The notes below the pieces were generated by a model that was not told the DNA's origin, made no database searches, and worked only from the letters and a program-made list of their open reading frames with translations. Positions 1 through 36,722 of a stretch of 64,000 bases of DNA are shown piece by piece (position 1 is the stretch's first letter; each line of letters begins with the position of its first letter). Made by a program: the position numbers and the translations under genes. This DNA comes from Lytechinus pictus (Eukaryota), in the NCBI RefSeq assembly GCF_037042905.1, contig NC_087251.1:6946001-7010000 (forward strand), given 5' to 3'.

Positions 1-432
1 TTGAAATGCTTAAAATGACCTAAAACGTACTCTGTTTTGGTCAAAAAGTGATTTTTAGCATTTTAAAATTTTGACGCGCGCGTACGCGCGCGTCGTGACC
101 TTCAGGTGACCTTTGATGACATGACCTGATGACCCTTGATCTGAAGTTTATGTCATGTGAATTTGATTTATTTTTGATAATTGATAATGGAGATATGATT
201 GATAATGTGATTTTACAAAATGGCGTCTAGATGACGTCATGATGACGTCATGACATTAAGATTCTTGCAGAATTGAGGTCTTATTGATGTTGATATGTGG
301 TGATATTTTGATGATTATTGAATATGAACTTTCTGAGATTTGCTGTCCACAAGAAATGGAGGAAATAAAAATAAGAAATAAGAATAAACTAGATTTTAAT
401 TCGTCATGCGGACGAATTAGGTGGTCTGTCGT

Positions 433-1136
433 ATAGATAGATAAACAGGAAAAAAATATTTAAACAGATATTAGATTGAAAAATAGATAGACAAACAGAT
501 TTACATAATCAAACAGATACATACAAGAAAGATAATTATATTAGATGGATGGAGTGATGGATGGAGAGATAAATTATAGGTGGTTATATTAATAAAACAT
601 AGACATATATAGATAGATATAGAGAGACAGACATATAGATAGAGAGACAGACATATAGATAGATAGAGAGACAGACTTATAGATAGAGAGATAGATTGAT
701 AGATATATAGATATATAGATAGATAGAGAGATGATTGGTGGTTATATTAATAAAACATATATAAACATATAGATAGAAAGAGAGACAGACAGATAGATAG
801 ATAGACAGATAGATAGACAGACATATATATAGATAGAGAGACAGACATATCATGAAGCTATTACGAGCTATCTCGTAATAGCTTCATGCTGCGTGGTCCT
901 ATCGCGTTATGTAAGCGGGCTCTAACTTTCGCCTGGCGGCTCGCCAATTGATGTTAGATATCGTTCCTTCGCCCGAAGGAAGCGATAACAAAGGATTAAG
1001 AGAGAAATTGGAAGATGGTTCTCCTTCTCGTGATAGCTTCATGGATAGATAGACAGACATATAGATAGACAAACATATAGATAGACAGAGAGACAGAAAT
1101 ATAGATAGATAGAGAGACAGACATATAGATGGATAT

Positions 1137-1173
<37 letters not shown>

Positions 1174-1605
1174 CATATAGATAGATACAGAGACAGACAT
1201 ATAGATTGATAGAGATCGAGACAGAGATAGATAGAGAGACAGACATATAGATGAATAGAGAGACAGACATATAGATAGATAGATAGATAGATAGACAGAT
1301 AGATAGATAGATAGAGAGACAGACAGACAGATAGATAGATAGATATATAGATAGATAGATAGATAGAGACAGGCAGATGGATGGATAGATAGATAGACAT
1401 ATCTAAACAGATAGATACATATATATTAGACAGAGAGAGAGAGAGAGAGATAAACAGACAGATAGATATACAATGTAGGTAGATAGACAGACAGACATAT
1501 GGATAGATAGAGAGAGAGGGACGTATTCAAACAGAAAGATATATATTAGACAGAGAGATAGATATGTCATGTAGGTAGATAGACAGACAGATAAATAGAT
1601 ATGAT
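433..1605. repeat. Degenerate (GATA/GACA/GAGA)n microsatellite inside Helentron-like unit (shorter copy at ~3060-3676)
   Basis: Directly visible tetranucleotide runs; source of the spurious YLSI-repeat ORFs 899-1400. Confidence 0.95.
851..1043. mobile_element. ~193 bp MITE-like insertion in the GATA tract of one array unit only
   Basis: CATGAAGCTATTACGAG (851-867) vs CTCGTGATAGCTTCATG (1027-1043), a 16/17 inverted match. Left end is itself a palindrome (851-888). Absent from the sister unit at ~3440-3470. Confidence 0.65.
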
Positions 1606-1694
1606 ATAAAAAAGTAATTATAATCTGTTTTATTTTGCAATATTTTAGCTATTATTTGTTAGAATTCTTATAATTGATCGTGGGCAAGATAGCT

Positions 1695-1805
1695 AAAAAA
1701 AAAAAAAAAAAAAAAAAAATCATGTTCACCCGCGGACTCGAACCCCTGCCTGCATGATGGAATGAGAAGTAAGTCTGACGCCTAACCGATTGAGCTAGAA
1801 TATTT
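1695..1805 (-). ncRNA. tRNA-derived RNA Pol III cassette (A box, B box, oligo-T terminator); not a functional tRNA
   Basis: Minus strand reads TAGCTCAATCGG (A box, 1797-1786) ... GGTTCGAGTCC (B box, 1744-1734), then 25 T (1719-1695). Acceptor and anticodon stems do not pair properly. Confidence 0.6.
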
Positions 1806-3765
1806 CCCATAGACTTAACACGTAAGCAAAACACAAGAATCTCAAATCCAATCTTGCCAGTGAATTACGGGCATGATCCCGACATCTGATCGGAAAATGA
1901 AGGGAACGCAACCGAAAGCTTAGAATCTCAGCTACAACATACTAAAAGCTCAGGGATAACTAGCAACAAAAATTGGAGATATGGCTTACGAAATAGAAGA
2001 ATGTAGAATCTAGTTTTGAGAAAAAGTCATGTCCCATAGAGATTACACGCAAAATGAGTAAAAATGACATGCCATTATTATTTGCAATTTTTGAGGATGA
2101 TTTGTTTATCAAAATGAAAAATAAAGGCAATAACTCAGAAAGAGTAAGAACTAAGCTACAACATATCAAAAATTGGGTGAAAATTGACCAATATTCACGG
2201 AGTTAGAGCAAGATTTGCATAATTATAATGACGTCATAATAGGCAAAATGGATTTTTTTGACTTCCGACGCCATTTTGATGACGTCATAATATAATTGAG
2301 GGTCAAATGAGACATGAAATTATATCTCTAGTTCATACTCTATCAAAATATGAAAAAAAAATTGGGGGTCCCCATGCGTTCTGAAGAGCTACAGCGGATT
2401 TTCTATAGGCATATTTTTGCCCATATATGGCCTATAGTGAGAGCTCGCGCGCACACGTGCTGCAAACTTTAACGGGTGTTAATTTCCTTATTAATGGTCG
2501 TAGAAGGTTGATCAAGGTATCAAATTGCTCAAAATTATATGATCAATGCAATGAAATAAAAAAACGGTGTTTCTGAGTTGCATTGAGGCGTTACGCGCGG
2601 AAACGCGCGCGCATACGTTTGCGCGCGCAATTTTTTGAAATGCTTAAAATGACCTAAAACGTACTCTGTTTTGGTCAAAAAGTGATTTTTAGCATTTTAA
2701 AATTTTGACGCACGCGTACGCGCGCGTCGTGACCTTCAGGTGACCTTTGATGACATGACCTGATGACCCTTGATCTGAAGTTTATGTCATGTGAATTTGA
2801 TTTATTTTTGATAATTGATAATGGAGATATGATTGATAATGTGATTTTACAAAATGGCGTCTAGATGACGTCATGATGACGTCATGACATTAAGATTCTT
2901 GCAGAATTGAGGTCTTAATGATGTTGATATGTGGTGATATTTTGATGATTATTGAATATGAACTTTCTGAGATTTGCTGTCCACAAGAAATGGAGGAAAT
3001 AAAAATAAGAAATAACTAGATTTTAATTCGTCATGCGGACGAATTAGGTGGTCTGTCGTATAGATAGATAAACAGGAAAAAAATATTTAAACAGATATTA
3101 GATTGAAAAATAGATAGACAAACAGATTTACATAATCAAACAGATACATACAAGAAAGATAATTATATTAGATGGATGGAGTGATGGATGGAGAGATAAA
3201 TTATAGGTGGTTGTATTAATAAAACATAGACATATATAGATAGATATAGAGAGACAGACATATAGATAGAGAGACAGACATATAGATAGATAGAGAGACA
3301 GACTTATAGATAGAGAGATAGATTGATAGATATATAGATATATAGATAGATAGAGAGATGATTGGTGGTTATATTAATAAAACATATATAAACATATAGA
3401 TAGAAAGAGAGACAGACAGATAGATAGATAGACAGATAGATAGACAGACATATATATAGATAGATAGACATATCTAAACAGATAGATACATATATATTAG
3501 ACAGAGAGAGAGAGAGAGAGATAAACAGACAGATAGATATACAATGTAGGTAGATAGACAGACAGACATATGGATAGATAGAGAGAGAGGGACGTATTCA
3601 AACAGAAAGATATATATTAGACAGAGAGATAGATATGTCATGTAGGTAGATAGACAGACAGATAAATAGATATGATATAAAAAAGTAATTATAATCTGTT
3701 TTATTTTGCAATATTTTAGCTATTATTTGTTAGAATTCTTATAATTGATCGTGGGCAAGATAGCT

Positions 3766-3876
3766 AAAAAAAAAAAAAAAAAAAAAAAAATCATGTTCAC
3801 CCGCGGACTCGAACCCCTGCCTGCATGATGGAATGAGAAGTAAGTCTGACGCCTAACCGATTGAGCTAGAATATTT
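3766..3876 (-). ncRNA. Second copy of the tRNA-derived Pol III cassette
   Basis: Same A box/B box/T-run, 2071 bp downstream of the first copy, in the next array unit. Confidence 0.6.
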
Positions 3877-6865
3877 CCCATAGACTTAACACGTAAGCAA
3901 AACACCAGAATCTCAAATCCAATCTTGCAAGTGAATTACGGGCATGATCCCGACATCTGATCGGAAAATGAAGGAAACGCAACCGAAAGCTTAGAATCTC
4001 AGCTACAACATACTAAAAGCTCAGGGATAACTAGCAACAAAAATTGGAGATATGGCTTACGAAATAGAAGAATGTAGAATCTAGTTTTGAGAAAAAGTCA
4101 TGTCCCATAGAGATTACACGCAAAATGAGTAAAAATGACATGCCATTATTATTTGCAATTTTTGAGGATGATTTGTCTATCAAAATGAAAAATAAAGGCA
4201 ATAACTCAGAAAGAGTAAGAACTAAGCTACAACATATCAAAAATTGGGTGAAAATAGACCGATATTCACGGAGTTAGAGCAAGATTTGCATAATTATAAT
4301 GACGTCATAATAGGCAAAATGGATTTTTTGACTTCCGACGCCATTTTGATGACGTCATAATATAATTGAGGGTCAAATGAGACATGAAATTATATCTCTA
4401 GTTCATACTCTATCAAAATATGAAAAAAAAATTGGGGGTCCCCACGCGTTCTGAAGAGCTACAGCGGATTTTCTATAGGCATGTTTTTGCCCATATATGG
4501 CCTATAGTGAGAGCTCGCGCGCACACGTGCTGCAAACTTTAACGGGTGTTAATTACCTTATTAATGGTCGTAGAAGGTTGATCAAGGTATCAAATTGCTC
4601 AAAATTATATGATCAATGCAATGAAATAAAAAAAACGGTGTTTCTGAGTTGCATTCAAGGCGTTACGCGCGGAAACGCGCGCGCATACGTTTGCGCGCGC
4701 AATTTTTTGAAATGCTTAAAATGACCTAAAACGTACTCTGTTTTGGTCAAAAAGTGATTTTTAGCATTTTAAAATTTTGACGCGCGCGTACGCGCGCGTC
4801 GTGACCTTCAGGTGACCTTTGATGACATGACCTGATGACCCTTGATCTGAAGTTTATGTCATGTGAATTTGATTTATTTTTGATAATTGATAATGGAGAT
4901 ATGATTGATAATGTGATTTTACAAAATGGCGTCTAGATGACGTCATGATGACGTCATGACATTAAGATTCTTGCAGAATTGAGGTCTTATTGATGTTGAT
5001 ATGTGCTGATATTTTGATGATTATTGAATATGAACTTTCTGAGATTTGCTGTCCACAAGAAATGGAGGAAATAAAAATAAGAAATAAAGAAAGAAAGAAA
5101 ATTCGGACAAACATAAGAGGTGATCTGTCATAGACAGACCACCTAATAAATAATAAAGAAAGAAAATTCGGACAAACATAAAAGGTGATCTGTCATAGAC
5201 AGACCACCTAATAAAAAAGCCTTGGACACAGTGCAAAAAACCTAACGATTTGGCCGCGTTGTTAACAACTATCGTAGGGGCGCTTTATTTATAAATAAAA
5301 AAGAATATGCAGCTGTCTATGGCGACGTGGTTTGTCGCGAGATTTGAGACAAATCCGTGGGAATTCTTGAGAAAATACATCAAAAGAACCGGTGAGTACC
5401 GATTAAACATTATTAAAGTTGTAAATAGATTATACATACCTTGTAGATTTAGTTTTTAAGGTGATATTAGTGCTTAGTTCTAAGCTAGGGAGGCCCAAAC
5501 GCGCGTGAGCGGAGTCCCACTTTATTAACACGGGTAAGTATTGCGGTGTCGCCTAGAGTGATTTTATCCAGTTTTTTGTTTTTAATCTTTAAATTTTTTT
5601 CTCCTTATACCTCATAAAGTAAGCTCCATCCATACATCAATTCTACAATCAGTAATGAATAAAACATTATTTGATCTCCATTTATTAAAATATATGATTG
5701 GCATTATCGTGGTTTATGTCACCAGTCCATTCACTGCCGTTTATTTCGTCAGCGGTGGTGACATCTTTCCACTCCCATTGACTTTGTACACAACGAGCGC
5801 ACACACACCGACACACACGAGAAGAGCTAGAGGTGACAAATTTCACGATAAGGCCATATGATTTTATGAAAAGTCGTCATTCCGAAATAAAAGGTTCAGG
5901 TGATGATGAAGACTAAATATTTTTTCGATACTATCGATATCAAACGATGTTGCGGACTTGGAAGACAAAATTGCCTTCGTGAAACGGAAAGCGCTGATTT
6001 GTCGCCAATCTTCCATTCTCGGAAGAATGGTCCTAGGACGTTCCTACGTATCGCTCATCTCGTCATGCAACAGGCCCCATCTCATCATGCAACAGGCCCC
6101 AGGGCAGCTCCATAGACATTTATTTGCTACTCACCGCCGTCTTTCCGTTTTCTTGCAAGCCGACGCTTCCCCGACTGATTTTGTCTCGTCCACGCCTCGC
6201 TTACCGGTCACATCTTCACTGGTGTGGATTTTGCTCGTAGAACTAGAAGTTGTGTCACCCCGGAAACGCATTGTTCTTATAAATTGTTGTGTATAACTGT
6301 TATTTGATCGATATATTTTTGTAGCTTACAAATCCACATGAAACTCTACACGTGAAATAGTTTAATTCAAATAAAAAGTAAACACTGCTCCACTTCTCTC
6401 TCGATCATTGCTCATCATGCAAAATTCCACGGCCGACCACAACGTAAACTCGGAGTTACGCAATGCCGGCCTAGCGCTAGCCTCTATGATATGAGGTCAA
6501 CGAACTTTTTAAGAGTTTAGTTTACCTTTACAGACTTAACACAATAGACTCGAGTTGTTAAAATTTATCAATTTATCAAAGCTCCATATCACAATCATGG
6601 CATGGTGAATTGATGTATTATATAAATGGTTATAAATTATGGTTATTGATTTTTTACAGGAATATCGAAATTTGTATCGTGGGAACAATGAGTTCGATGA
6701 ACCAAAAACTCAAACTCCTCTCTGACTTCGAGTGAGACTATCTAAAGGCCTTGAAGAGATCGAGAAAGAAGGCCGGTGTAGCGACCGGAACATGGTCATG
6801 GGTCTATATTAAAGTCTTGATATATTTCACTTATTTGTCATTTTTAGAAAATAAAAGTAATAACA

Positions 6866-9800
6866 ATGCTTCACAAATTACGCCCATGGATATTTTACCC
6901 AAACTACCGGCTATTCTGCAGAAGTACTCGCCTATCTTGCGTGAAAATGGTAAGTAGAATTCAACCCATTTTCCCGATTTAGTCAATCTCGCTTAGAAGT
7001 TAGAGTTAGAGTTAGACTCTTTATTTTAGTAACCGGTAACCCACTAATTAAACCGGGGAGCTCCGGCCCGCTTCGCGGTCCGGAGTCCAGGGGCCGATTG
7101 CACGAAAGGGTCTTTCCAAGGAACGTCTTTCGTGTCGCCCATCTTTTATGATACGCCATGTAAAACGCATTTCAAATAAATTATCTGCAAATATATTTTA
7201 TTTGTCCGTTAAAATAAACAAAATATTTGTTTATAAAATGATGTGATATCTCATAAAATTGTATAAAATTTGATTTAAAAGCAAGCTTACGAATTTTATT
7301 TGTTTATCATAAATTTCAGAAACACCCCGCTTATAGCCACTCATTCAATGAACAAGGTTATGATATAACCACTCATTCAATGAACAAGGTTATGATATAA
7401 CCTTGTTCTCAGTTATATCTCCATGTGTGGCAAAATAAGGGTGGCAATGTTTGGCTTATTTTATCTTTTTCTTTGGGACAAATGCTTGATTTTTTTACAC
7501 TGACAGTTTCCATTACACTTATTCGTCATACAACTTGGCCCTTAAGTAAATTTGATTCTTTAAATTATTTTTTTCATAATTAAAAATAGAGATTAAAAAA
7601 TGAAAATTTTCTTGCCATATAACTTTCTACCAATAGAGGGCGTACACAAAAATATGCCAAAAATTCAAGTTTTTGAGCGCTTTAGTGAATACAAAAATTA
7701 TTCCCAAGTTACTATTAAAAAATAAATTGCAACTGTATGGAAATTGTTAATTTTGGTCACAAAAGTGATATTTTAATGATTTTTTAAAGTGTGGCTCTGT
7801 ACAGCTTTGGCATGCCATAGTCCTACCTGTAGATTCCCCACAGGTAGGATGGTTGCAGTGAACAAGTGGATATAACCTTGTTCTCAGTTATATCTCCATG
7901 TGTGGCAAAATAAGGATGGCAATGTTTGGCTTATTTTCTCTTTTTATTTGGAACAAATGATTGATTTTTTTAAACTGACAGTTTCCATTACACCTTTTTG
8001 TCATACAACTTGGCCCTTAAGTAAATTTGATTCTTTAAATTATTTTTTTCTTAATTAAAAATAGAGATAAAAAATGAAAATTTTCTTGCCATATTATTTT
8101 CCACCAATAGAGGGCGTACACAAAAATATGCCCAAAATTCAAGTTTTTGAGCGCTGTAGTGAAAACAAAAATTATTCCCAAGTTACTAATGAAAAATAAA
8201 TTGCAACTGTATGGAAATTAGTAATTTTGGTCACAAAAGTGATATTTTAATGATTTTTTAAAGTGTGTGCTCTGTACAGAATTGGCATGCCATAGTCCAA
8301 CCTGTAGATTCCCCACAGGCAGGGTGGTTGCAGTGAACAAGTGCTTATAGCGCACCATAAAAGATGGGCGACACGAAAGACGGTCCTTGGAAAGACCCTT
8401 TCGTGCAATCGGCCCCAGGGGTGGTATTCTGGGGCCGATTGCACGAAAGGGTCTTTGCAAGGCCCAAAACGAACAACAACAACAACAACTAACTAACAAC
8501 AACAACAATTTGCAAGGACCGTCTTTCGTGTCGCCCATCTTTTATGATGCGCCATGTGAAACACATTTTGAATAAATTATTTGCAAACATATTTCATTCG
8601 TCCGTTAAAATATTTGTTTATAAAATGGGAGTACCTTTAGAATCCAATGTCATGAATCGATTACAAAAGAGCAATTACCTACTAATTGCTGCTGCCGGTG
8701 TGGTGCGATATCAGTTTTGTCGCCCTCTACGTTCGTGAGTGAATTAAGAGTCCCCGGCGACAAGCAGGAATCGGATCGGGAGATGGATAAAGGATGGGGG
8801 GAGGGGGCAGATGGGGGAGGGGGGATGGCCCCGTAGAGGGAGTACACGACTTGTCCAATGTGGTGGATGTAGTAGGAGAGAGTGAAGTAATGGCAGGTGA
8901 TATAATAATCAGAGGACTTAAAAAGGGATGATATATATGAAGGGATCAAAGAGGGGGCGCGTGATCGAGGACACGTGCAATGGCTTATTATAATCACTCG
9001 GGTCGCGTTCGCGTTCGAAATCACTCGGGTCGCGTTCGAAATCACTCGGGTTTTGGATTTTTGGCGATTTTTTTTTTATTTCGATGCGATTTTTTTTTCT
9101 AACGGTGTCTTCAATGGGACAAACACGCTGGGCAAATAAAATGAAATTGAAATTCTAGTTTCGTTTTCAGCCAGCAAATGCCTTAAATAAAATGCATCAT
9201 CTTAAAGGCGCAAGTGCAATTAAAATGTAATAGAAGTCGCAAGCACGCGCGATGATTCGGAACATGTTATTAAAATGCTGTGGGGAGGTAACGTTTTCAA
9301 ATCAATTTATTACTATCTTCAGAAATTAACTTTTGATAACCAAGAACAAATATAAAAGAAGCGGGGTCCGCTATCACCACGAGGTTGAAGAGAAGTGTCT
9401 ATCATCATAAAGGAGGTAAGAGAGTAGTGCAGTGATGTCCGTCGATAATACGACCTTTAAAATTTCACGGCGGCGTCCGCTATCACCACGAGGTTGAAGA
9501 GAAGATATCTATCCTCGTAAACATCGTCAGAGATAATACTGCGTCCTTCTCCCTGATTAATGCGACCTCTAAATAGCTAGCACCTCAAAAAAATCTTATG
9601 TATATATGTTCTGAACGATCACGCACTGTAACTAGATCTACGCCGATATTTTATATCCGATTTTTCCTTCAAGGGGCATGATCGAAGATTGGCAGGTGAT
9701 CGCGCCGATTGTGGCAAAATCGGGTAAAATCGGGAGCCGATTTTAAAATCGGTTAATTAGAACAGGTACAATTACGATTTTAAAATTTAAAATTAATTTT

Positions 9801-12800
9801 AAATCGATTTCCAAAATCAATTTCAAAATCGATCTAAGATCAATTTTAGATCAGTTTTAGTATTAGTTTTTAAAAGCCCATTCACATTTTTACTGATGCT
9901 GACGAAAAGTTAGTTTGGTTGTCAGAGCGTTATTTGTCCTGCGTCTAAATAACTATGTCCGATCGAAGGACCGTTTTAATTTCGGAAAGGTAGGAGAGAC
10001 AGAGAGAGAGACTGATCCCCGTTCAGCTCAACGTATACGTTTGGCACGCGAGCACAAAGAAGATCAATTAAGCACATCACCTAATGCAATGTTTCGAGAA
10101 TTTAGGTAGGGAATTTTTTAGGTCTCCAGTTACTCTCCAGTTACTTAAAACATGATATGGCCATTTTATCTATAAAATAGGACAAATTTTATGAGAAATG
10201 GACAATAGTTAAGAGCAGAATTTTAAAACGCCTATCGGAAAGATCGTCCTCAAAGCTCATTACGTATTAGACAGCTGGCAGCCGTCTGTTTCGAGTTTTT
10301 TAACATTTTTATTTCTCCTCGTACACAGACGGCTCGCTATGGTGCAACCATCATGACGGGGTTAACAATGCAAAATCCCCCAGACGGCGCTCATCGATTT
10401 TTGTCTTTATTTCATAAAAATATATGGAAAGAACTGTATCAAATAAATATTATTATTCCGTTTTGTCCTAAAATGCACCAAAAAAAGAGAAAATAAACTT
10501 AAAAGGGGAAAAACAGTAACTAATTGCTTCGGCTGTCGCGCAACTTCACTTCCCCGTTTTATTGGAACTTAATGCATAAACATATGGCCATTGAGTCCCT
10601 GTACAGATCGAGCTAGAACTTCGGTCTCTGTATTGGTGAGTGGAGCTAATGGAGTTCAGCGGAACAACGAACATTACAGACTGGAGACCGAAGCTTTTGG
10701 TCTAATTACGTATATATATGCATTAAACCACGGATGGCTGGCTATGCATACCGCTGAATAAAATACTTTCGGACGAGCTGCAGACTGACTGGCACTGTAA
10801 CGTGGGATCTAACTCGGCTGGACTCACGTTACCTTGCTCCATGCTACCGATGCACGCCGTGTCCGACCGTGGCCGGGTCCTGCCTTGGGGCCATTGCATG
10901 CAGGCATACATGTCCGTACATGGGAATGACGATGTAATATCGATGTGGCAGATATGGCAAGTTCCGACTCGGAGTCCTCGTATAAAAACAGTAGAAGTCT
11001 GGATGTATTCTAGGATAGTTGAGCCACATGGCTGATTTGCTTGTTTGTTATGTTAAGCAGTAGGCGAGTGCCTTTTATTTAAGGCACTTGCCGGCTTAAA
11101 ACGAAACTAGAATTTGAATTTCATTTTATTTTCCCAGCGTGTTTGTCCCATTGAAGACACCGTTAGAAAAAAAAATCGCATCGAAATAAAAAAAATCGCT
11201 AAAAATCCAAAACCCGAGTGATTTCGAACGCGACCCGAGTGATTTCGAACGCGAACGCGACCCGAGTGATTATAACAAGCCCGTGCAATGGTATATAATT
11301 ATGTTGATGATGTTGTTTAAGGAATGATATACGTTGATATCTATATATGGATACAGAATACTTGGATACTATTATATTAAAACATGTATGGATATGAATA
11401 CATGGATACGTGGATACTTGGATACTATTGGATACTTGGATACTTGGATACGTGGATACGCCGATACGTGGATACTTGGATACTATTGGATACTTGGATA
11501 CGTGGATACTTGGATACTGTTGGATACTTGGATACTTGGATACGTGGATACGCGGATACGTGGATACGCGGATACTATTGGATACTTGGATACTTGGATA
11601 CGTGGATACGTGGATACGCGGATACGTGGATACGTGGATACTTGGATACTATTGGAGACTTGGATACTTGGATACTTGGATACGTGGATACGTGGATACG
11701 CGGATACGTGGATACGTGGATACTTGGATACTGTTGCATGGATACTTGGATACTTGGATACGTGGATACGCGGATACGTGGATACGTGGATACTTGGATA
11801 CTATTGGATACTTGGATACGTGGATACGTGGATACGCGGATACGTGGATACGTGGATACTTTGATACTATTGGATACTTGGATACTTGGATACGTGGATA
11901 CGCGGATACGTGGATACTTGGATACTATTGGAGACTTGGATACTTGGATACGTGGATACGCGGATACGTGGATACGGGGATCTTAGATACCTTTGGTTAC
12001 ATGGATACTTGGATACGCGGCTACGGGCACATGCCTACATGAAAACTTAGATACATAGATACTTGGATAAGAACATCAAGGAGTTTTTGATACTCTGGAA
12101 CATGGAAAACACATGAAGAAGTGCATGATACTAAGTGTACTTTTAGAACGAAGCATCACAGACCCTAATTACCTTATTTTCAGATAATTGACATCGTCAC
12201 TTTTAATCTGTATTTTTCTTGAGAGAAAAGATAGAAAAGGCTACTTTCATCAGTGAATCGTTAAAAATTGGCTGCTCTCTTTATAATTATAACGAGACAT
12301 ATATATCAATTCCCTAAGCCCATATGATTACATTTTGACCAATTAATCTTAATCCTTTTTAGGATTGATTTTATTTAATTAAGTTGATTTCAGTAAACAA
12401 AATATAAATAAACTATTTGGATTATTATAGATTTTTCAGTCAACATAAAAGAAGGCTAATATAATAACATGTACGAATATGCAGCTTAAAGGTCAAGTCT
12501 ACCCAAAAAGTTATTGATTTGAATCAATAGAGAAATAAGAAACAAGCCAATTTCATCAAAAAACGTATGTAAAATAAGAAAGTTATGACATTTGGAAGTT
12601 TTTCGCTTATATTTCGCAAAACAATTACAATCATGTACAACTCAGTGATAAGTAATAAGACACGAGCAACAGAGAACAACAAAATAGTTAAGTAAGGGGA
12701 TAATAAGAACGATATACGTTTTGGTTATATTAAAATGACCAATCAATTTCAAAACATTGGTTACAATTCGACAATTAATTTCACTCACTCCTGTTGGTAA

Positions 12801-15800
12801 TTGCAACGAGACACATCATAGGGCCAATATCACAATCCTTTTTTTAAAGAAATTAATTTCATTCCTATGTCTTGTTATGTGAATGTCTCGTTCTGATTAT
12901 AAATTATCTCATATGACTCGTTCTATTTATAATTATTGGCATATAATTTACTTCTTTTCAAAAATTATAGAAAGAGTGAACTTGATGAAGAGAAATAGAA
13001 GAGGAATTACAGAAGGGGGAAAATAGGATAAAAGGAGAAGACGGAGGAGGAGAATGAAGAAAAATAGGAATATGAAGTAAGGGAGTGCAATACAAAGTTT
13101 TGTTAATGATATATTGCATTATTGGCATATAATTTACTTCTTTTCAAAAATTATCTTCCTACTTATACATCCAGAAGACTATCAAGAGAGCATGGAGAAC
13201 TGCAATTGTAACAGAACATCGGCATGCAATGACGCCTATGATATAATATCTCGTTTTAAGCATAAATTGGATTAAACTTTAATTGGTGGGTTGTAATGTG
13301 AATGTCTCGTTCTGATTATAAATACGGATAAGTATTAGTCCTATATGATTCTTTCTATATCTAAATTTTTATAAAAAATGATTTTTTTTTTTTAATGAAT
13401 ATTTTATGAATTTAGACCTAGTTAAAAATTGAATAAGTTGACCGGTTTATGAAAAGACATGACTTTCTTAGCGTTTTTTGAAATGGTGAACAGGAATGTT
13501 ATATCTGACTAAACAATATTACTGATTCGAGTGCGAAGCGCGATTTAAAATATGTTATAGGGCCTATTGCGATCAAAATCGAATATAAAATAAGAAAGTT
13601 ATGACATTTAAAGATACGCTTATTTTCAACAATTGGAAATTTTGAAATATGACGTGCTTGCACAACACATGTAATTCGATTTAATTATGTTAAAAAATGT
13701 CACTTCAGAATTCCTTCAGTTCATTGATAAAGAACCACCTGTGAATGCCTTTGAGACTATAGGGATACCGTGTAAGATTAATACCCCAAATTCTTGAAAG
13801 GAGGGATTAAGATTTAATAGTGATTACGTAATCTATTGAAGTTAATGACCGGCATGAACGTGAGACCGGCATGAGACGAGGAAAGAAAGATGAAATAAAA
13901 AAAGAGAAAAAAATGTGAAAAAGGAATATAAGAAAAAACAGAAATTCAAGTTTATATTCCTAATGCATTTTAAGCACTTTGTTTGATCGTGAATGATATT
14001 TTATTAATAAGAAATAATAATAAATGATAGCATGTTTATAAATATCGCTTTTCTCAGAACGGCTCAAAACGATTTACAGCATATTATTGTCCCATGATTC
14101 ATTTCAATCCCGCATGAAAAGTGCACAATTTCCACATCTTGGGAAGCATTCCTTGCATTCATCGCAGCCTCGAAATGGCGCTTGCAAATTCAAGCATACA
14201 ATAACTTTCGCATCCAACCGGGTACCCATTTAGCACCTGGGTCGAGAGTGGCAAGGTGTGCCGGCAATACGTCTTACCAAAGGACGGTATATAGACCGCG
14301 GTGAGAATCGAACACACGACTCTCCGTTTACAAGGCGGGAGTCAGAACCACTATACGCCACGACTCTTAAAAAAAAGGCCTTCCTGAAAAAGTCGTGCAC
14401 AGAACATGTTTCTCATAAACATAAAATATGAGCGCGAACTTCTTTCAAACATCAAGGACGAAAAGACCTAAGTATTTTTCGTAAAAATGAATAGCGTGCA
14501 CAATCTTCTTAATTAAAGTATTAAAAGCATGAAGAGCGAAATGAACCAATAATTTTAACAAATTGACCTAGCTGAAACACTGATATCTTCCCGTCTGTAA
14601 ATTTCTTCACTCTTTTTCTTCTTTTCCACTCTTCTTTGCATTTATTCCATTTTTCCTTTTTACGCAGCCAATATAGGGCGTAGAGATCGCATTCGGCCTC
14701 CTGGAATTGCCCATTTACATTTTCTTTTTTAGTCTATATTTTAATTGGTACAAGAGGAGGCAAAGGCGATTAGACACTGGATTCACAAGTTCGTCCAAAA
14801 ATTAAAACTGATATTTCTAATCTTACACATTCACAATCTTGGCCAATTATTTTCTGTTCATTATCGCGATTTTTTTTCCTACTTGATTCTATTTCACCTC
14901 ATTTCATTCATCTCCTTTGTTTATCCAGGGGCCGCGGAACGGTTTTCAAAATGGGGGGGGGGGCTGAGCCAAAAGTGGGGGAGGGGGCTGAAGCCCCCCC
15001 CCCCCCGGTTCCGCGGCCCCTGTAATTCCTATTTCTTTTGTGCTGTTTGTATATCTCTGTAATACTGGGAGGGATAAGCCAGCAGCAGGGAGAGGAGGGC
15101 CGTATTAGCACGACATTCCCCCTTTGTTTTTCTTTTCCACCATATCATTTTTTAAGTTTCCCTTTCCATTTTACTTATATTTCTTCTGTTTGTACTTTTT
15201 TTAAAGGGGTAAGCAAGACCACCTCGCCCCTTGGTCTGCATGTGCCTGTCGAATGCAATTTGCATCCTAACTTCCCGTTTTCTTCCTCTTTTGTAGTATT
15301 AATTTGTGGAAAAAACTATTAGAAAGTAATGTTATAAAGGGAGCCTCGACTTTGCTATTAACATATGCAGTCTTTTTAAAGTTACCTTAGATCCGAGATA
15401 ATTTATTGTCATGTATAAAATGCACAAAATCTGCTTTCAAAAAGTGAAAACTATTACACCGACAAACACAATTGTTTTTAGCCTACATATTTCAACAATC
15501 AAATAATGTGAGCGCAAAGCGCGAGCTGAATATTTCTTACATTCCCAGCTATATACAGGGCATTCTAAGCACCTTTTAAAATCACGAACAGGATAGGGGT
15601 ATGACTATACACTTGATGTGATCGCGAAGCGCGAGCCGAAACGAAATTCGACATCTCACGTTTTGTAAATCATGAAAAGGATGGATAAGTGGATAAATGG
15701 ATAACATTCCTGCATTAATAATTTGATAATCTGATCTGAAACTGGAACAAGATTCGTATCTAAATAAATATGCGTGCGTGTGTTTAGGTTCAAACCTAGA

Positions 15801-18800
15801 ATCTGGACATTCTAATTACATTCTTTATCATAATATCAATAATAAGAGCGCGATCCGCGAGCTAAAGATATTTGATTTTCCGATCCCCAAAAAAAAGTTA
15901 ATTTAAGCGCAATTACGAATTGGATATGGATCGTGCTTAATAAATGATGCGAGTCAAAGCGCAAGTTGATATTTTTATCAATACATATATTTCCAGTTGC
16001 GACCGGGAAATTTTAAGGACATTTTTGTTTTTGTCGAGAGATGAAACTTGTCGATATTCCGTTCTGAAAAAAAAACCGGACAATGATTATTAGGAAATAA
16101 TGAAAATATTATTATCTTACTTATTAATCTAATAAGCCCAATGAGGTCGCGAAATTAATATCAAGGTAAAAAAACTGGATATTTTGTAATCATGAAAAGG
16201 ATGCATGGGTTAATATACTTTAAAGAATACTTTAAAAATAATGCGAGCGCAAATTGCAAGCCGAAAATTTTGATAAACTGTCAAGAAAGAGGAATTTAAA
16301 ATAATTTGTTACAATTGATATAGGTATACATTACTCCCCAATGAAAATGCAAGTGCGCAGCTTTAGCTGATACTATTCAGAATCAGATAAGCCTAAAAAG
16401 GGATATTTTTCAAAAAAATATGGAATACACGAAGAGAATAGTTACTTGACGAATTAAATAATGCTAGTGCGCAGCGCGAGCGGAAAATGTCGATATTTAG
16501 ACCATAAAATATAGTCATTTTACAGAAAACTATAAAATATATTTGTAAATCAAACAAACTGAAAACTCAGTGTCCGAGAAATATTTCATATATTTACTTC
16601 AAAACTTGATATTTTAAGCTCAATATAATCCTATTGAGCAAGTTATGTATATCATAGATTAGGCAATGTGAGCACAAAGCGAGCGAAAATTTAAAATAGT
16701 GACATGAAATCCCTCCCCCCCCCTCATCTTATTTTATTCACTCGTCTTACAGGCTCTTATTTTCGCTCTTCATTTTCTATTCTCTTTTCTCTTCTTTTTC
16801 CTCTCTTTCCATTTTTTCTTGTTTGCTCGTTCCAAAAAGTGGGGGGGGGGGGCATTTGATATCAAATTCCAAAAAGTGAGGGGAAGCGTCTCCCTGTCCC
16901 CCAGGGATTTCCACCAATGTATGCAATTTGATTTGAAATAAAAGAAAACCCTACATCGTCTTTGTAGTCGATTTTTTTTTTTTTAGCGTACTTTCATGAC
17001 GAATTACTTCATTCTCGCCTGTTCCTAAATCGGATTTAATAAGAAAATCAATGTTTCTTTTAAAAAAACCGCACCCCAAACCCCAAATAACACCCCTAAA
17101 TTCATTAAAAAAATATATATGAACGATAATTTTCTTGGAGTATTCGCAATTTGTCCGAAAATTATTCTTATTGTCCTCGTCCTTAAATTTACCACTCGTG
17201 ACGTTGTCCTAAATGTCTCCGGTTCTGTCCTAATACGATCTGCATGCTGTCCGCGCCGAACGCCGACAAATTGATTTAGATAATCTTGTCCCAGGACAGT
17301 TCCAGGAATGTCCTACGACAATACGCAGACAGTCCTGGTCGTGTCCTAGGACAAGATCATTTGCATAATCTTTTACGGAATTTGGTTGCGGACAGCATGC
17401 CGAAATGACAAAAGTAGCTTCCGCAACCCTTCCTGGTCTTGTCCGCGCCCTAGTGGAAAACCGCCTTAAAAAAACAAGCTGTGTGTCTCAAACAATTAAA
17501 TGTGAGCGCGAAGCACGAGCTTAATTTTTTGTATATTGACATGATAAAGGAGCATTTTGACAAATTTTGGAAAGAATTTCCAAAGAGGATAGGTATCTCA
17601 CAAATCAAACAATGCGAGTGCGCAGCGCGAGCTGGAAACTTTTACATTTTAATTTTGTTTTATCATCCCCGCGAATTCGACCCTAAACGCGTAATTTTTC
17701 TAGCGAAATAGATACCCTTTTTTCATTATTTTTGTGTTTTTGACACCCTTATCACGTTACGTACATAACGTGCCCTATCGTGAAAAAGACATCCTTTTTA
17801 CGTGTTTTTTTTTTGTCGCGCATGGTATCCACTCGTCAATGTAAGTGCCCCCCCCCCCCCGCGGGGTTCAAACAAGGACAGAAAATGAGCTATGCCTATA
17901 TACGAATCGCTTCATATTTATCCTCCTAAACATTCAGAATCCATGTCATATTCATCATAATCTCTAGATTTATAGAGAAAAAACAGCAAAAATATTGCTC
18001 TACAATTCTAAAAAGAAGGGTATATACATGTATATATTATTTTAATCATACGAACCAAAAGTCCAGTTTTCTGTCTTATAATTTACTGTGAAAATCACAA
18101 GAATTTGATTTAAAAAAAAATAGGTAGGCCTGTACAATTTTTTTTTAATTAAAAAAGAAACAAAAATAGAATGGACAAGAAAGGAAGAATATAAAAGAGA
18201 AAAGAAAAATATATTTAAAAAAAAAGAAGAAAAGAAAGGAGAAAAACAACGTAAAGGAAAAGGAAAAGTGTTTAAACAATGACAAAAAAATGAGCTATAT
18301 GCCTGTATTGTCTTGAAAATGATTTTTTTTAAAATAAGATGACTGAGACACGTACTGCACTGGGCCATGTTAAACCAATTAAGAAAAGAATATAAACCAA
18401 CAAAATTCTACTTTTAGTTAACGACAGATCGACCGACTGAAATGTGGATGAAAATATTTTCTGATTCTCCCTTCTTTTCCCCCTTTTCGCGAAAGGTGCA
18501 TGGATCCTCCCCTGTATAACATACCCCCACGACTCTCCCTCCTTCCACCCCCCCCCCCCTTTGGCGAAAGCTGGATACTCCCCTGTACCCCCTCCCCCGT
18601 ATCCACAAACATTATCCCAGCTGCCCGTATCCTCGTATCCACGTATCCGCGTATCTTCGTATCCATGTATCCAGTTATCAGTACGGTAGTAGTATCCACG
18701 TATCCGCGTATCCACGTATCCTCGTATCCATGTATCCAGTTATCAGTACGGTAGTAGTATCCGCGTATCCACGTATCTTCGTATCCATGTATCCATTTAT

Positions 18801-21800
18801 CAGTACGGTAGTAGTATCCACGTATCCCAGTATCCACGTATCCTCGTATCCATGTGTATCCACGTATCTTAGTATCCATGTATCCGCTTTTATCTCAAAA
18901 ACGTAATTTCTAAAAAAGTTAACAAGTACCGGTACGTCGTATCCGTTGTTTTCTCGTTTTAAAATCTAGAGATTTTTGTAATCGATTCATGACATTGGAT
19001 TCTAAAGGTAAGCCATAAAATGATGTGATATATCATGAAATTGTTTAAAATTTGATTTAAAGCAAGCTAACGAATCTTATCTTTTATCATATATTTCAGA
19101 AACACCCCGGTTATAGCGTATCATAAAATATTGGCGACACGAAAGACGGTCCTTGGAAAGACCCTTTCGTGCAATCGGCCCCAGGAACACTGTCATAACT
19201 TTTCTCATAAATTTTGTCATTTCTCTCCGAGATGTGACACCGCGCTATGATTGTAACAAATCGGTATTCTGAACATTGTCTTTTCCCTGTCATATCTCTC
19301 TAAGAGTCTAAGTTCCCGCCCATCTTTTCGGAAGCAAACCAATCAAAATCATTGTTAAAGAAAGACGTTAGTTCCCAGTGGGAGCACTTCTAGCCAATAG
19401 GAATGTCTCGTGGCAGGTAGGGCGTATCCCCAATACAGTTGCTGGCATCGCTCAACTATGCATATATTGATGTGCTTATAATTACAAAGAGAGACAGGGG
19501 AGCTGTGAAGGATTTTAGAAGAGAAATAGACAAAGAAGGACAACAGAGAAAAAAAAGGAAGATTTAATAATATGTAGGGCCTAACTCATCCATGACAATT
19601 TTCAAAATTAATACCACAATCTAATCTAAATAATATTATATGCTTGACATTCAGTCGGCAGGCCAGGGTATCAAGATATTTGGTACTAAAAGATATGACA
19701 AAATCTATGACTGCTTCCCCCCTGTCATAACTTTTGTCATATCTTTTGCTTGTGTAAAAGGATTACACGTATTTAAAGCTGCATATTTTTGGTGCGCGCT
19801 AAAGAGAAGAGACAAAATTTATGACAATTTTTGTGACAAAAGTTTTGACATCCACCAGAATACCTATTTTGTCATATCTCTGAGAAAAGATAAAATATGG
19901 AGAAAAGACAATGTTCAGAATACCACCCCAGGACTCGTCCATACTAGTCAAACATATACTCTCCAAAATGGGGTAGAATGGGGTCGCAATAGCACTCCAA
20001 ATAAAAGGGGAAAAAATAAAAACATGCACTTACCTCGATTATATGGATTAAGGTCTATCGTGACACAAAATCCTGACATCGAGGCACAAACTGGACCCTC
20101 AAATTTCAAAAAAAGGAAAAGTTAGACGTCTATGACTATGTCGCGTTCGTTTTGGTATCGATCTGCCATTTTGTTTTCAATTTTGACAGAAGGAGAATGA
20201 ACGAGACAGAACTTTTCCTTTTTTTGAGGGTTAGTTTGTGCCTCGATGTCGGGATTCTGTGTCACGATAGACCTTCATCCAGATATATTCGAGGTTAAGT
20301 GCATCCAATTTATTTTTCCCCCTTTTATTTGGAGTGCTATTGCGACCCCATTCTACCCCATTTTGGAGAGTATGTTTGACTAGTATTACACGGACGAGTC
20401 CTGGGTTAAGTCTCACTCAGCTCTCAGTCTCACACTCCCCTCACATTCACAATCACAGTCGATCTAACGCATAGATACTAATGTTATTGGGCGTTGCAAG
20501 AAACTTGCGATCAATTGCAATTAGACCTATATTTTTGGTCACTAAATGAATCATAAGATGTGAAATTGATTGTGACTTGCAATTGATTTCTTATCTGTTT
20601 AAACAAGCAGTGTAATTGTAATCGGATTTGCTACAGTTGAAATTGATCTATCAATTGTAAACTTGCAACAGAATATTTGCAATTGACGAGTGGATACCAT
20701 GCTTAACCATGGGGTTTCGAAAAGCACCCTTATTAAACAAGCATTTTCCATGTTCTGAAAATGCACCCCTTAACAAGTATTGGCGTGTGAAACCCTACCC
20801 TTAACAAGTATTGGAAACAAAACGGTACCTTAGCCTTGGCAAGTATTTCCTGAATTGACCCCCTAAACAAGTCTTAATTGTTAGGGCTTATGCCATGGAC
20901 ATGATCACGGACATCAGCTTTACCTTTTTTTTACTTTTCATACCCTCACAAATGGGACTGTAAACACAGTTTTTCCTAGCAAAATATATACCCTTGGCCT
21001 TTTTTCATTCTAGTGTTTTTGACACCCGTATTACGTTACGTACGTTACGTGACCTATCTTGAAAAACAGATCCCTTTTACGTGATTTTTGGTTACGCATG
21101 GTATCCACTCATCAATGGAAGTGCCCCCCCCCCCCCCCCCCCGTAGTAGTGTTAGACTCAAAGAGACTGCTGATCAGTATTTAGCATGTTTAGTATTGAA
21201 CTGTATGCCGATGCCAATCATGACATGTTTTCACTTTTTCAGCCTCACCCAGAACTCTAACTTAGGTCTACTCTAATAAGTTAAGACAGTTAAAAACACA
21301 TTTCTCATGTACTGTAGTGTAGCCTGTAGTAGGAAAGGGTTCATCAGATAGTGTTTCATTAACATTTTTGTCTGACAAGCTGTCCTTGAGATTGGCTGAG
21401 AGGCACTGTTACTGTTCCTAAATATGTCGGATAAAATGGGACTTGGATAAAACGCCAAACAACTTTGACAAGCATTTCATTCTACAAGTGTTTCTAACTG
21501 GAAATTATTTTCAAGCTTCCCGGCCATGTATTTATGTTGTTTGAACCACACAAGTCACAAGAGCCATTTCTGGTATTGAAATTGAATGATCACCGAGAAT
21601 AAGCCATGATTTGTAACAAATGGTCACACAGGAGACGGGTCATGAGTTCCAGACTAAGTAAGTTAGTGCATGCCCGGCCCCAAGCCGAGCCCAGTGTATT
21701 TGTTTTGTTGGAATCGTGCATATAATGGCGGAACAAGTATTCAATCTACAACTACCTTGCCTGTGTTAATTGCTTCATAAGCAACCTAAATTCCTTAAAT

Positions 21801-23784
21801 TTCAAAAGATTAAATATTTCAATTTTTTTTTTATTATTTCTGGCCCTTTCCTCATTCTAACTCGGGAAGAGTCTCATGCATGGCCAGGGTCATACTTTCA
21901 ATTGACCCTACTTGAGTCTACATGTAATAATACTAACTAGTATATGATTATTATCACTATTTTTCTTTTAATCTATGAATGATGCAGGAACGAAGTAAAG
22001 CAGATCCTTCATCAGGGGAAGCTTTGGAAGAAGATCCGCCACCTATGCCTCTTCCGTCATTCCCAAGTCATGATTGGATTGGCCCAGCTGATAAGAAATC
22101 TAATCTCAGATTGATTATACTTGCTCAGCCTGAACAGGAAACCGATTCAGAAAGAGATTACAGAGTCATGAGAACAGCCACGTATGAATGGAACCATCAG
22201 TTCTGGTCAAAGCAAAATGAAATATTCATCAAGGTAATTTAAATTTTGTAAGGAGATTATTTGTGATTGGAAGATTTTGGATACGTCCTCCAAGCTAGGA
22301 AAACAAATGAATATGAGAGGCTGTGTACTAGGAGAAAACATAGTTGATTGTTACTAGTACATATATTCTAATTCAATTTTAGTAATAACTCTTGTAAGAT
22401 GTATTTGATAAATTAACAATGAAAAAAAAAAAACAATTCCCAATAATTTTCTTTTAGTATGTTTAAATTCACAAGTCTATATAAATTATTTTGCCAATTC
22501 TGTAAGACTTGACTTCCCCATCATGACCCCATGGTTTGTGACCTTTTTTGTCCCTTTCACACTCTGTATCTGTTTCTTTCTTTCTTTTTTCCTTTTTTTT
22601 GACAGGCCAAAGAGCAATTTGTCCAGGAACGTCTTGGTAATAAGCAGAAAGAGATAAAAGACTCTTCGGGTAATGAGGCTGTAATATCTGGTATGCTATT
22701 TATTCCATTTTTACTCAAAATTACATTCTTAAGAGCATGAATAGTATGTAAACATTTGGCAAATTTAGTTCAAAGAATGTACCAATATAAGCAAATATTA
22801 AACTCAATTTGGGTGACAAACAGTTTTCCAGTTTCCCCTGGGTAGTAACCAAATACATACACTTTTATATGTTAAAGGAGAATGAAACCCTTGAAACCAG
22901 CTGAATCCATATCAAAGAGAAAAATCAAAGAAACATATTGTTGAAAGTTTGAGGAAGATTGAATGAATAATAAGAAAGTTATGAGCATTTGAATATTGAG
23001 ATCACTAATGCCATGTAGAACCTCCCATTGGCAATGCGACCAAGATCTGTGATGTCACACACGTACAACTCCTTCAATTACTTTAGTACTTATTTCACTT
23101 ATATTCTCACTTTTATAGAGTCTATCACAAGGTGAGGTGTTCTCTTTATGAGAGGACAAGTAAAGAGGTTTCACAACATTATATCATTGATGAATCATTT
23201 GTCATATGATTAGAATGAGCATAAAGAGATGTTTTGGGGTATATTTTCAGTGTCCAAAAGGGGAGAGTTGTTCATCTGTGACATCATAGATCTTGGTCGC
23301 ATTGCCAATGGGAGGATCTCCATAGCATTAGTGATCTCGACATTCAAATGCTCATAACTCTTCTATTGCTAGTCCTATATAACTTTTGTTGATCTTATTC
23401 TTTGATTTTTCTGCTTTCACAAAAGCTAACTTGCTCCAAGAGTTTCATTTTCCTTTAATTAAATTACTGATCTTCCCCATATTTACATATGTAAGTTGTT
23501 AGAATATGTGGTATTATATGGCTTCTAATCTGAATTGTATATTAACCAATTCTGATAATGTAGAATACCGGTAAATTGGTATTATGTATTATGATATTTG
23601 GATTCCAGGTGTAAAGCAAGTTCTGAGTGCTGAGGAGATGGCAGAGTTTTATCAACAATTTCTGAAAGAAAATCAGCATTCATTCAAAGACTACAACAAG
23701 CAATGGTACAGCAAAAACTTCTCTCTCTTGTGGCCAGCAATAAAAGCCAATGTATCAAAGTTGATGAAGAAGAACAAAAGATGA
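6866..23784 (+). CDS. COA8: Cytochrome c oxidase assembly factor 8 (APOPT1), mitochondrial; coding exons 6866-6949, 21988-22233, 22606-22690 (alternative donor after 22669), 23609-23784; ~196 aa
   Basis: Exons 2-4 give HDWIGPADKKSNLR...YEWNHQFWSKQN...LSAEEMAEFYQQFLKEN...YNKQWYSKNF, matching the COA8/APOPT1 family. Exon 1 (MLHKLRPWIFYPNYRLFCRSTRLSCVKM|GTAAGT) is Arg-rich and acid-free like a mitochondrial presequence and is phase 0, matching exon 2. Exon 1 assignment is less certain than exons 2-4. Confidence 0.88.
7091..8415. mobile_element. PIF/Harbinger-like non-autonomous element A with ~476 bp internal tandem duplication
   Basis: ~60 bp TIR GGGCCGATTGCACGAAAGGGTCTTTCCAAGGA...; CAG TSD at 7088-7090 and 8416-8418. 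Internal direct repeat begins at ~7394 and ~7870. Confidence 0.8.
8982..11281. mobile_element. 2.3 kb non-autonomous element with ~215 bp TIRs, GG...CC ends and 8-bp TSD (Merlin-like), nested in the 10.4 kb element
   Basis: GGCTTATTATAATCACTCGGG... vs ...CCCGAGTGATTATAACAAGCC; TSD CGTGCAAT at 8974-8981 and 11282-11289. TIR contains 3x AATCACTCGGG. Confidence 0.85.
10600..10705. repeat. ~100 bp hairpin-type dispersed repeat; inverted homologue at 36870-36970
   Basis: CTTCGGTCTCTGTA ... TACAGACTGGAGACCGAAG; reverse-complement similarity to 36870-36970. Confidence 0.55.
11345..12070 (+). repeat. GGATAC(TT/GT/GC) 8-mer minisatellite
   Basis: Directly visible; produces the three spurious DTWIRGY ORFs. 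Confidence 0.95.
14030..14367 (-). mobile_element. tRNA-derived SINE
   Basis: Minus strand: TGGCGTATAGTGG (A box), GTTCGATTC (B box), central CCAGGTGCTAAATGGGTACC, tail ...GAAAAGCGATATTTATAAA followed by an AT-rich simple repeat. Confidence 0.7.
15500..16920 (-). repeat. Degenerate MITE-family tract with repeated GCGAGCGCGAAGCGCGAG motifs (same family as 52930-53975, opposite orientation)
   Basis: About 15 degenerate copies of the motif at ~70-110 bp spacing. Confidence 0.6.
18572..18886 (-). repeat. GTATCC minisatellite (reverse complement of the 11345-12070 array) with ~60 bp higher-order repeat
   Basis: Directly visible; TATCAGTACGGTAGTAGTATCC occurs three times. Confidence 0.93.
22876..23454. 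mobile_element. TTAA-flanked MITE with AGG...CCT ends (Kolobok-like) in COA8 intron 3
   Basis: TTAA|AGGAGAATGAAAC ... GTTTCATTTTCCT|TTAA; long imperfect inverted arms. Confidence 0.75.

Positions 23785-36680: not shown

Positions 36681-36722
<42 letters not shown>

What the first reader, a model, noticed from the sequence alone, without database searches (positions are those of the whole stretch)
7048..20409. At least five-level Russian-doll transposon nest that can be unpacked step by step
Seen: host foldback MITE (7052-20405) > Harbinger-like C (8419-19928, with sibling A at 7091-8415) > Harbinger-like B (8432-19181) > 10.4 kb GG-ended element (8628-19014, TSD ATAAAATG) > 2.3 kb GG-ended element (8982-11281, TSD CGTGCAAT) > small internal repeats. 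Removing each layer restores its host. Every insertion lies within ~13-350 bp of the left end of the previous element. Inference: terminal regions of these elements, next to the COA8 promoter, act as a repeated landing pad, and the nest gives a relative chronology of family activity.
Basis: partly seen in the sequence, partly recalled or inferred. Interest (0 to 1): 0.72.

Follow-up and report, generated by a model that had tools for sequence, protein, structure and literature searches.

The report
Nested jumping genes in urchin intron
Nine gene-less cut-and-paste mobile elements sit inside one another in the first intron of a sea-urchin housekeeping gene; the stacking is real and deeper than first described, but it looks like a known kind of pile-up at favoured target sequences, not a special left-end landing pad.

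Summary
The nest is real and deeper than reported. It has nine elements (host>C>B>D>E>G; host>A>F>F') filling 13.4 of the 15.0 kb of COA8 intron 1 in a sea urchin (best protein match: Lytechinus pictus). Eight of nine have exact target duplications; B has CTG/CAG flanks. In-silico excision restores the three hosts that have an independent copy, and public reads hold A without F. No coding capacity was found. The claim 'every insertion lies near the left end' fails. D sits mid-B, F is 64 bp from A's right end, and G is 1.3 kb into E. Six of seven hosts are under 2 kb. A second three-level nest in the window has insertions at 80% and 49%. A modest left skew remains (post-hoc p 0.008–0.07). Best reading: sequential insertion steered by target motifs (CWG for NuwaI/Harbinger-like A, B, C; a palindrome in F's tip), perhaps helped by the nearby promoter. 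Nesting orders copies, not family activity. Genome-wide tip enrichment and empty alleles could not be tested. Earlier unchecked scan notes describe similar nests elsewhere in this genome. Ordinary-to-instructive.

The parts
6866..6949 (+). COA8 coding exon 1 (28 codons), followed by a GT donor
   Evidence: Translation matches the N-terminus of P0001 at 27 of 28 residues; RNA run X23 has depth 16.9 on one mate direction in bin 6804-6971
7048..7090 (.). TTAA target copy plus the left 39 bp of the host MITE, ending in the CAG target used by A and C
   Evidence: TTAA on both sides; the restored junction aligns 48/65 with the intact family end at ~34.9 kb
7091..8415 (.). Element A: NuwaI/Harbinger-like MITE, GGG ends, ~60-bp TIR, CAG TSD, 311 bp once F is removed
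   Evidence: the joined form without F occurs in X10 (2 contigs) and X23 (11 reads, 9 starts)
7338..8343 (.).
   Evidence: heterogeneous loose ends at 8343 in X10 (47 contigs, agreement 0.38)
7370..7868 (.). Element F-inner (missed): full 499-bp copy of the same family, 8-bp TSD GATATAAC, 32 bp inside F-outer's left end, within a 27-bp palindrome
   Evidence: 473 of 500 columns identical to restored F-outer; flanks; loose ends at 7369/7370 in X10 (46 and 72 contigs)
8419..8431 (.). Left 13 bp of element C (NuwaI-like, GGG ends, 13-bp TIR, CAG TSD; the CAG at 8416-8418 is shared with A)
8432..8627 (.). Left part of element B (same family as A), with a ~55-bp (AAC)n micro-insertion between two TTTGCAAGG copies
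   Evidence: B minus the micro-insertion vs restored A: 277 of 300 ungapped columns; repeat
8628..19014 (.). Element D: GG...CC ends, 41-bp TIR (2 mismatches), 8-bp TSD ATAAAATG, inverted octamer arrays (11398-12025 and 18626-18885) and ~6.5 kb non-coding interior of decayed repeats; Merlin-like by hallmarks
   Evidence: interior matches to other window repeats at 70-97%; no Pfam hit in 150 ORFs
8982..11281 (.). Element E: GG...CC ends, ~215-bp inverted arms (94.6%), 8-bp TSD CGTGCAAT, 354 bp inside D
   Evidence: X9 record 20 matches 8827-8973 without differences and leaves the window exactly before this TSD (read as D lacking E, inferred)
10268..10704 (.). Element G (missed): TAGAC...GTCTA ends, 9-bp TSD ATTACGTAT, abundant family, inside E
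   Evidence: loose ends at 10704/10705 in X23 and joints at 10268 in X10; family ends also at 35083 and 36874
19015..19181 (.). Right TSD of D plus the right 159 bp of B; flank is CAG, not the expected CTG
19185..19928 (.). Remainder of element C (744 bp)
19929..20409 (.). CAG, the rest of the palindromic host MITE (its right end lacks ~37 terminal bases present in the 34.9-kb copy), and TTAA
21988..22233 (+). COA8 coding exon 2; intron 1 is 15,038 bp, 1,680 bp without the nest
   Evidence: Pfam PF10231 E=3.8e-20; 100% identical to P0001, named COA8 of Lytechinus pictus by nr; lengths

Best explanation
The stretch is a tolerated intronic pile-up of non-autonomous cut-and-paste transposons, moved in trans by several transposase types. 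Shown: the nesting order host>C>B>D>E>G and host>A>F>F'. Inferred: each family picked its own short target. NuwaI/Harbinger-like A, B and C use CWG, and the only two CCWGG sites of the 513-bp host lie in its tips. Because these elements end in GGG/CCC, each insertion re-creates CCAGG, so A and C ended up side by side at one site. F landed in a TATA-centred palindrome in its own family's left tip. D, E and G landed at positions with no shared motif. The apparent left bias comes from short hosts, tip-located motifs and possibly open chromatin at the COA8 promoter on the left. Some layers (G in E; the old interior of D) probably arrived pre-assembled.
For: TSDs and restorations. CWG TSD with GGG ends defines NuwaI (PMC4482050 passages). 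Other A-family copies also carry CAG at the flank: pieces start at 7088 in X1 and X10, and three X1 contigs leave at 8419. CCWGG occurs only at positions 36 and 508 of the host; TATA occurs only twice in F-outer, both in the first 50 bp. 3 of 7 sites are not left-sided. A second nest in the window has sites at 80% and 49%, and two other TTAA insertions sit in the centre of palindromes. Same-site double insertion, MITE-in-MITE multimers and position hotspots inside host elements are published (PMC5932611, PMC5172404, PMC2836564). G-E junction contigs occur in X9, which shows no depth on the unique flank.
Against: A left skew is nominally significant under a uniform null (p=0.008-0.017). The motif-conditioned test that removes it (p=0.41-0.52) is partly circular, because the longer motifs were read from these same sites. 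E at 354 of 8079 bp of D (P=0.044) has no motif explanation. B's flanks are not a clean TSD. X9's empty flank may be a filter hole, so the pre-assembly reading is weak. No empty or intermediate allele of this locus was seen, and the read tables were truncated.
Confidence: 0.68

Rival explanations
1. Element termini are true cross-family landing pads: transposase bound to, or hairpins formed by, terminal sequences attract new insertions of the same and of other families, beyond simple motif matching.
For: 4 of 7 sites lie in the first 8% of their host. The host and F sites lie in 13-bp and 27-bp palindromes. Unchecked scan notes e1-7810640 and e1-7810261 report tip insertion for other families in this genome.
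Against: 3 of 7 sites are not terminal, and the second nest shows no tip bias. The two D/E-type insertions differ, one central and one subterminal. Motif location already predicts three of the four tip events.
Confidence: 0.14
2. The COA8 promoter, apparently bidirectional, makes a local insertion hotspot; 'left end' simply means 'promoter-proximal'.
For: Eight left junctions lie 103-2033 bp from the exon-1 donor. RNA reads lie on opposite mate directions on either side of ~6470-6800. P-element same-site dimers are closer to start sites than single insertions (PMC5932611 section 11).
Against: A nest also formed at 52.5-54.1 kb (its distance from a promoter was not determined). If layers came pre-assembled, their inner positions say nothing about this locus. 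Chromatin was not measured. This explanation can add to the best one.
Confidence: 0.13
3. Part of the structure is not sequential insertion: a composite A-to-B unit moved or rearranged (A's left end and B's right end are both flanked by CAG), or the region is mis-assembled.
For: The pairing 7091-19181 also has a perfect TIR and CAG on both sides, and B's own flanks disagree.
Against: Removing 7091-19181 does not restore the host, because C's interior follows. Five distinct 8-9-bp TSDs and gap-free restorations are not expected from mis-assembly. One substitution, or conversion from a CAG-flanked family end, explains B's flank more simply (inference).
Confidence: 0.05

Closest known systems
NuwaI group of the PIF/Harbinger (PHIS) superfamily (PMC4482050; passages read)
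   Same: A, B and C have GGG termini and short TIRs; A and C have CWG (CAG) target duplications.
   Different: No transposase or Myb/SANT ORF here (non-autonomous). B's flanks are CTG/CAG. The passage lists fish, a beetle, a crustacean, a mollusc and an anthozoan as hosts, with no echinoderm; the supplementary tables were not read.
Merlin superfamily (PMC8101967; passages read)
   Same: D and E have 5'-GG termini, 8-bp TSDs and TIR lengths within 24-462 bp; D has internal tandem repeats.
   Different: No DDE_Tnp_IS1595 transposase is present. D is 8 kb without E and carries old non-coding DNA between inverted octamer arrays, like a foldback element.
Same-site double insertion of P elements and other TEs (PMC5932611; passages and section 11 read)
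   Same: A|C share one target copy (CAG) between them; the site is near a promoter.
   Different: Two different families share the site here, and further layers are nested rather than tandem.
MITE multimers and self-insertion in rice and maize (reviewed in PMC5172404; passage read) and insertion hotspots inside human TEs (PMC2836564; abstract and passages read)
   Same: MITEs inside MITEs, self-insertion (F in F), and preferred positions in the host element.
   Different: Greater depth (six levels) and at least four target-duplication types in one nest.
Dating TE families from nesting (PMC1914374, PMC5657132; search listing only)
   Same: Uses the rule that the inner element is younger than the outer.
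   Different: Those listings describe genome-wide analyses; one nest orders single copies only.

Membership tests
NuwaI (PHIS) for A, B, C | 5'-CWG-3' TSD | tested here: inconclusive
   Met for A and C (CAG/CAG); B has CTG/CAG. Other A-family copies are flanked by CAG.
NuwaI (PHIS) for A, B, C | TIRs of 12-61 bp starting GGG | tested here: met
   Ungapped TIRs: A 60 bp, B 31 bp (interrupted by the micro-insertion), C 13 bp; definition
NuwaI (PHIS) for A, B, C | Autonomous partner with DDE transposase and Myb/SANT ORF sharing these TIRs | not testable with these tools
   No coding sequence in the nest (0 of 150 ORFs hit Pfam); no genome is held
Merlin for D, E | Terminal 5'-GG and 8- or 9-bp TSD | tested here: met
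   definition
Merlin for D, E | TIR 24-462 bp | tested here: met
   D 41 bp; E ~215 bp
Merlin for D, E | DDE_Tnp_IS1595 transposase in the element or in a partner with the same ends | not testable with these tools
   None inside; a partner cannot be sought without the genome. Other superfamilies with 8-9-bp TSDs are not excluded.
piggyBac-type MITE for the host | TTAA TSD and CCC...GGG termini (definition recalled, from no call) | tested here: inconclusive
   TTAA on both sides; the left end reads ACC here and CCC in the 34.9-kb copy, whose flank is TTAC; the right end is shortened
hAT or P for F | 8-bp TSD with CA-starting termini (definition recalled, from no call) | tested here: inconclusive
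   8-bp TSDs and CAC...GTG ends are present, but they do not separate hAT from P; no transposase
Dedicated terminus-targeting system | Insertions confined to host termini | tested here: not met
   3 of 7 sites are central or right-sided; second nest at 80% and 49%

The most novel reading that the evidence does not exclude
In this sea urchin, palindromic subterminal motifs of non-autonomous DNA transposons act as cross-superfamily landing pads that each insertion renews. Nests then grow directionally at promoter-proximal tips, and multi-layer composites (such as E+G, or D with kilobases of old cargo) move on as single units. That would be a self-feeding route to rapid intron expansion.
Probability: 0.15. 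Interest if true: 0.55.

Novelty: new member of a known kind. Interest (0 to 1): 0.27.

Why it matters
The nest makes COA8 intron 1 about nine times longer (1,680 to 15,038 bp) and starts ~100 bp from a housekeeping exon. It is a clean test case for how intron size grows and for calibrating TE annotation in sea urchins. It also supplies precise ends and target duplications for several families (NuwaI-like, Merlin-like and unclassified). If tip targeting beyond motif preference were shown genome-wide, it would add a rule to target-site choice of DNA transposons; one locus cannot show that.

Tried and rejected
No whole genome is held, so the genome-wide tests could not be run. Metagenome scans: 0 loci for the A/B terminal motif; 2 loci for a host-MITE 20-mer, which matched only 24 bases and are chance hits. 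Pfam on 150 stop-to-stop ORFs of 40 aa or more from 7000-20500 (ORFs starting in the octamer arrays were mostly left out): 0 hits. One coding-looking 40-aa stretch in D: no homologue (a weak search). Exon-like scan of D: 8 candidates, none convincing. Rfam on 5000-22500: 0. ARAGORN: 0. Sequencing-run search: no RNA holder listed on record. The single read-laying run covered 6300-11330 only and used 4 of 24 listed runs; its tables showed 15 of 268 joints, 24 of 1823 loose ends and 24 of 23,555 pieces, and no row at the flank-host junction. Presence, absence and polymorphism of the nest therefore remain open. Rejected: reading 7338-8343 as a simple 475-bp tandem duplication (one search reports it so), because two separate 8-bp TSDs and a full 499-bp restoration show self-insertion. 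Rejected: A-left to B-right as one element (see rivals). Earlier-findings look-ups by sequence for A, E and F, and by place nearby, gave nothing relevant. PMC4744444 (passages) was not useful. Literature searches listed no paper on this locus; supplements were not read and may list echinoderm NuwaI or Merlin families.
Full report
Setting. The window is from a sea urchin. The exon at 21988-22233 hits Pfam COA8 (E=3.8e-20) and is 100% identical to a protein that nr names COA8 of Lytechinus pictus. The N-terminus of that protein is encoded at 6866-6949 (27 of 28 residues). The nest therefore lies in intron 1, beginning 103 bp after the donor. The intron is 15,038 bp long and would be 1,680 bp without the nest. 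In RNA run X23, reads lie on one mate direction over exon 1 (depth 16.9) and on the other at 6300-6467 (depth 2.6), which suggests a divergent transcript (inference). No whole genome is held.

Observation. Exact direct repeats flank the host (TTAA), A (CAG), C (CAG), D (8 bp) and E (8 bp). B is flanked by CTG on the left and CAG on the right, so it has no clean duplication. With ends fixed by the inverted repeats, the 8-bp duplications have chance probabilities of 7e-5 and 1e-5. Excision in silico restores the hosts that have an independent copy. The host junction aligns 48/65 to a second family copy near 34.9 kb; B across the D site aligns 48/51 to A; A across its internal insertion aligns 54/60 to B. 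C could be compared only with its own right end and an internal motif (31/39 and 17/19, with one extra base); D has no second copy in the window. One record of run X9 matches 8827-8973 without differences and leaves the window just before E's duplication, which is what a D copy lacking E would do (inferred, the joint itself was not shown).

The 'small internal repeats' in A are two copies of one 499-bp family, one inside the other. F-outer (7338-8343) and F-inner (7370-7868) each have their own 8-bp duplication, and restored F-outer matches F-inner at 473 of 500 columns. Public data agree. The form of A without F occurs in X10 (2 contigs) and X23 (11 reads, 9 starts), and none was listed for X1 or X9. 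Heterogeneous loose ends mark F's termini at 7369/7370 and 8343. E contains a third missed element, G (10268-10704, 9-bp duplication), whose ends are also marked by loose ends and joints. The structure is host>C>B>D>E>G (six levels) plus host>A>F>F': nine elements, eight of them with exact duplications. A relaxed TIR-plus-TSD scan is not by itself convincing (4 hits against a mean of 1.4 in 30 shuffles, one reaching 4), so F and G are accepted on restoration and read evidence. Nothing codes: 0 of 150 ORFs hit Pfam, and Rfam and ARAGORN found nothing. D's interior holds decayed repeats, 70-97% like others in the window. The strict TIR-plus-TSD scan found no convincing intact element there, so the interior is probably older than D's insertion (inference).

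The left-end claim. Positions in the restored hosts are: A/C 39 of 513, B 13 of 757, D 196 of 355, E 354 of 8079, F-outer 247 of 311, F-inner 32 of 499, G 1286 of 1854. Four of seven are in the first 8%; three are central or right-sided. Combined tests give p=0.008 (four chosen steps, left end), 0.017 (all seven, left end), and 0.048 and 0.070 (either end). These are post-hoc tests on one selected nest, but they count against my reading and leave a real skew possible. A control lies in the same window: a three-level nest at 52535-54082 has insertions at 80% and 49% of its hosts.

Mechanism. A, B and C fit the NuwaI group of PIF/Harbinger elements, defined by CWG duplications and GGG ends (PMC4482050, passages). 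Other A-family copies are also flanked by CAG (pieces starting at 7088 in X1 and X10; three X1 contigs leaving at 8419). The restored host has CWG at 9 positions but CCWGG at only two, one in each tip, and the used one lies in a 13-bp palindrome. Elements ending in GGG/CCC re-create CCAGG at their edges, which explains the A|C pair sharing one CAG (inference). Same-site double insertion is described for P elements (PMC5932611, passages and section 11). Both F duplications are TATA-centred; F-outer has TATA only twice, both in its first 50 bp, and F-inner landed in a 27-bp palindrome there. Conditioning on these motifs removes the skew (p=0.41-0.52), but this test is partly circular because the longer motifs come from the same sites. 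D and E have GG ends, 8-bp duplications and TIRs in the Merlin range, and D has internal tandem repeats (PMC8101967, passages); without a transposase this is a resemblance, not membership. Their two target sites share no motif, and E's position 354 bp inside D is unexplained. The promoter on the left may add a gradient: P-element dimers lie closer to start sites than single insertions. That was not testable here.

Chronology. Nesting fixes the order of copies along each branch. It does not fix A against C. A and B are one family (277 of 300 ungapped columns), so the family appears at two depths. Contigs spanning the G-E junctions occur in X9, which shows no depth on the unique flank 6300-6971, hinting that E moved with G already inside; the tool warns that holes prove nothing, so this is weak. 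No empty or intermediate allele was seen. The call covered only the left 5 kb, used 4 of 24 runs, and showed a small part of its tables.

Comparison. MITE multimers and self-insertion (PMC5172404, passage), position hotspots inside host elements (PMC2836564, abstract and passages) and dating by nesting (PMC1914374, PMC5657132, listing only) are established. Searches listed no paper on this locus; supplements were not read. Unchecked notes of this scan describe several other nests, self-insertions and same-site stacks in this genome; I use them as leads only. The piggyBac, hAT and P hallmarks used for the host and F are recalled, not taken from a call.

Verdict. A real, unusually clean and deep nest of non-autonomous DNA transposons in a housekeeping-gene intron. 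It is a new example of a known phenomenon. The left-end landing-pad rule is not general, and the remaining skew needs a genome-wide, motif-matched test. Interest 0.27.

Noticed in passing
window 52535-54082: A second three-level nest: outer element with 8-bp TSD ATGCTATG, middle 52930-53975 with TSD TGGACATA, inner 53331-53554 with TTAA in the centre of a palindrome.
   Followed up: partly
window 40852-42173: A 1136-bp TTAA-flanked element (40948-42083) inserted at the centre of a palindromic MITE.
   Followed up: partly
window 36443-37743: A 1301-bp element with 6-bp TSD CATAAG interrupting a LINE-like frame (35610-36581 and 37661-38407, the latter with zf-RVT); a G-family end lies inside it at 36874.
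   Followed up: no
window 34583-35083: A half copy of the host MITE family lies next to a G-family end and is cut by a small palindromic element.
   Followed up: partly
window 1-5150: Recent tandem duplication of 2.0-2.6-kb units (94-99.7% identical) containing (GATA)n tracts and a poly(A) run.
   Followed up: no
window 8463-8517: A ~55-bp (AAC)n-rich insertion between two TTTGCAAGG copies inside B's left TIR, perhaps a truncated retro-insertion.
   Followed up: partly
window 6300-6467: RNA reads on the mate direction opposite to COA8 exon 1 suggest a divergent transcript and a bidirectional promoter.
   Followed up: no
window 12070-18620: D's interior is ~6.5 kb of old repeat-rich non-coding DNA between young-looking ends; a captured-cargo origin is possible, and the donor is unknown.
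   Followed up: partly
run X9 on window 6300-11330: This run, labelled organism B, holds near-identical pieces of A, D, E, F and G but shows no depth on the unique flank; low-coverage admixture, filtering or shared families are all possible.
   Followed up: no
run X10 on window 7338-10704: Several contigs join an F or G terminus to another F or G terminus across 3-22 letters, so ends of these abundant families sit close together at other loci; no rate could be derived (table 5c).
   Followed up: no
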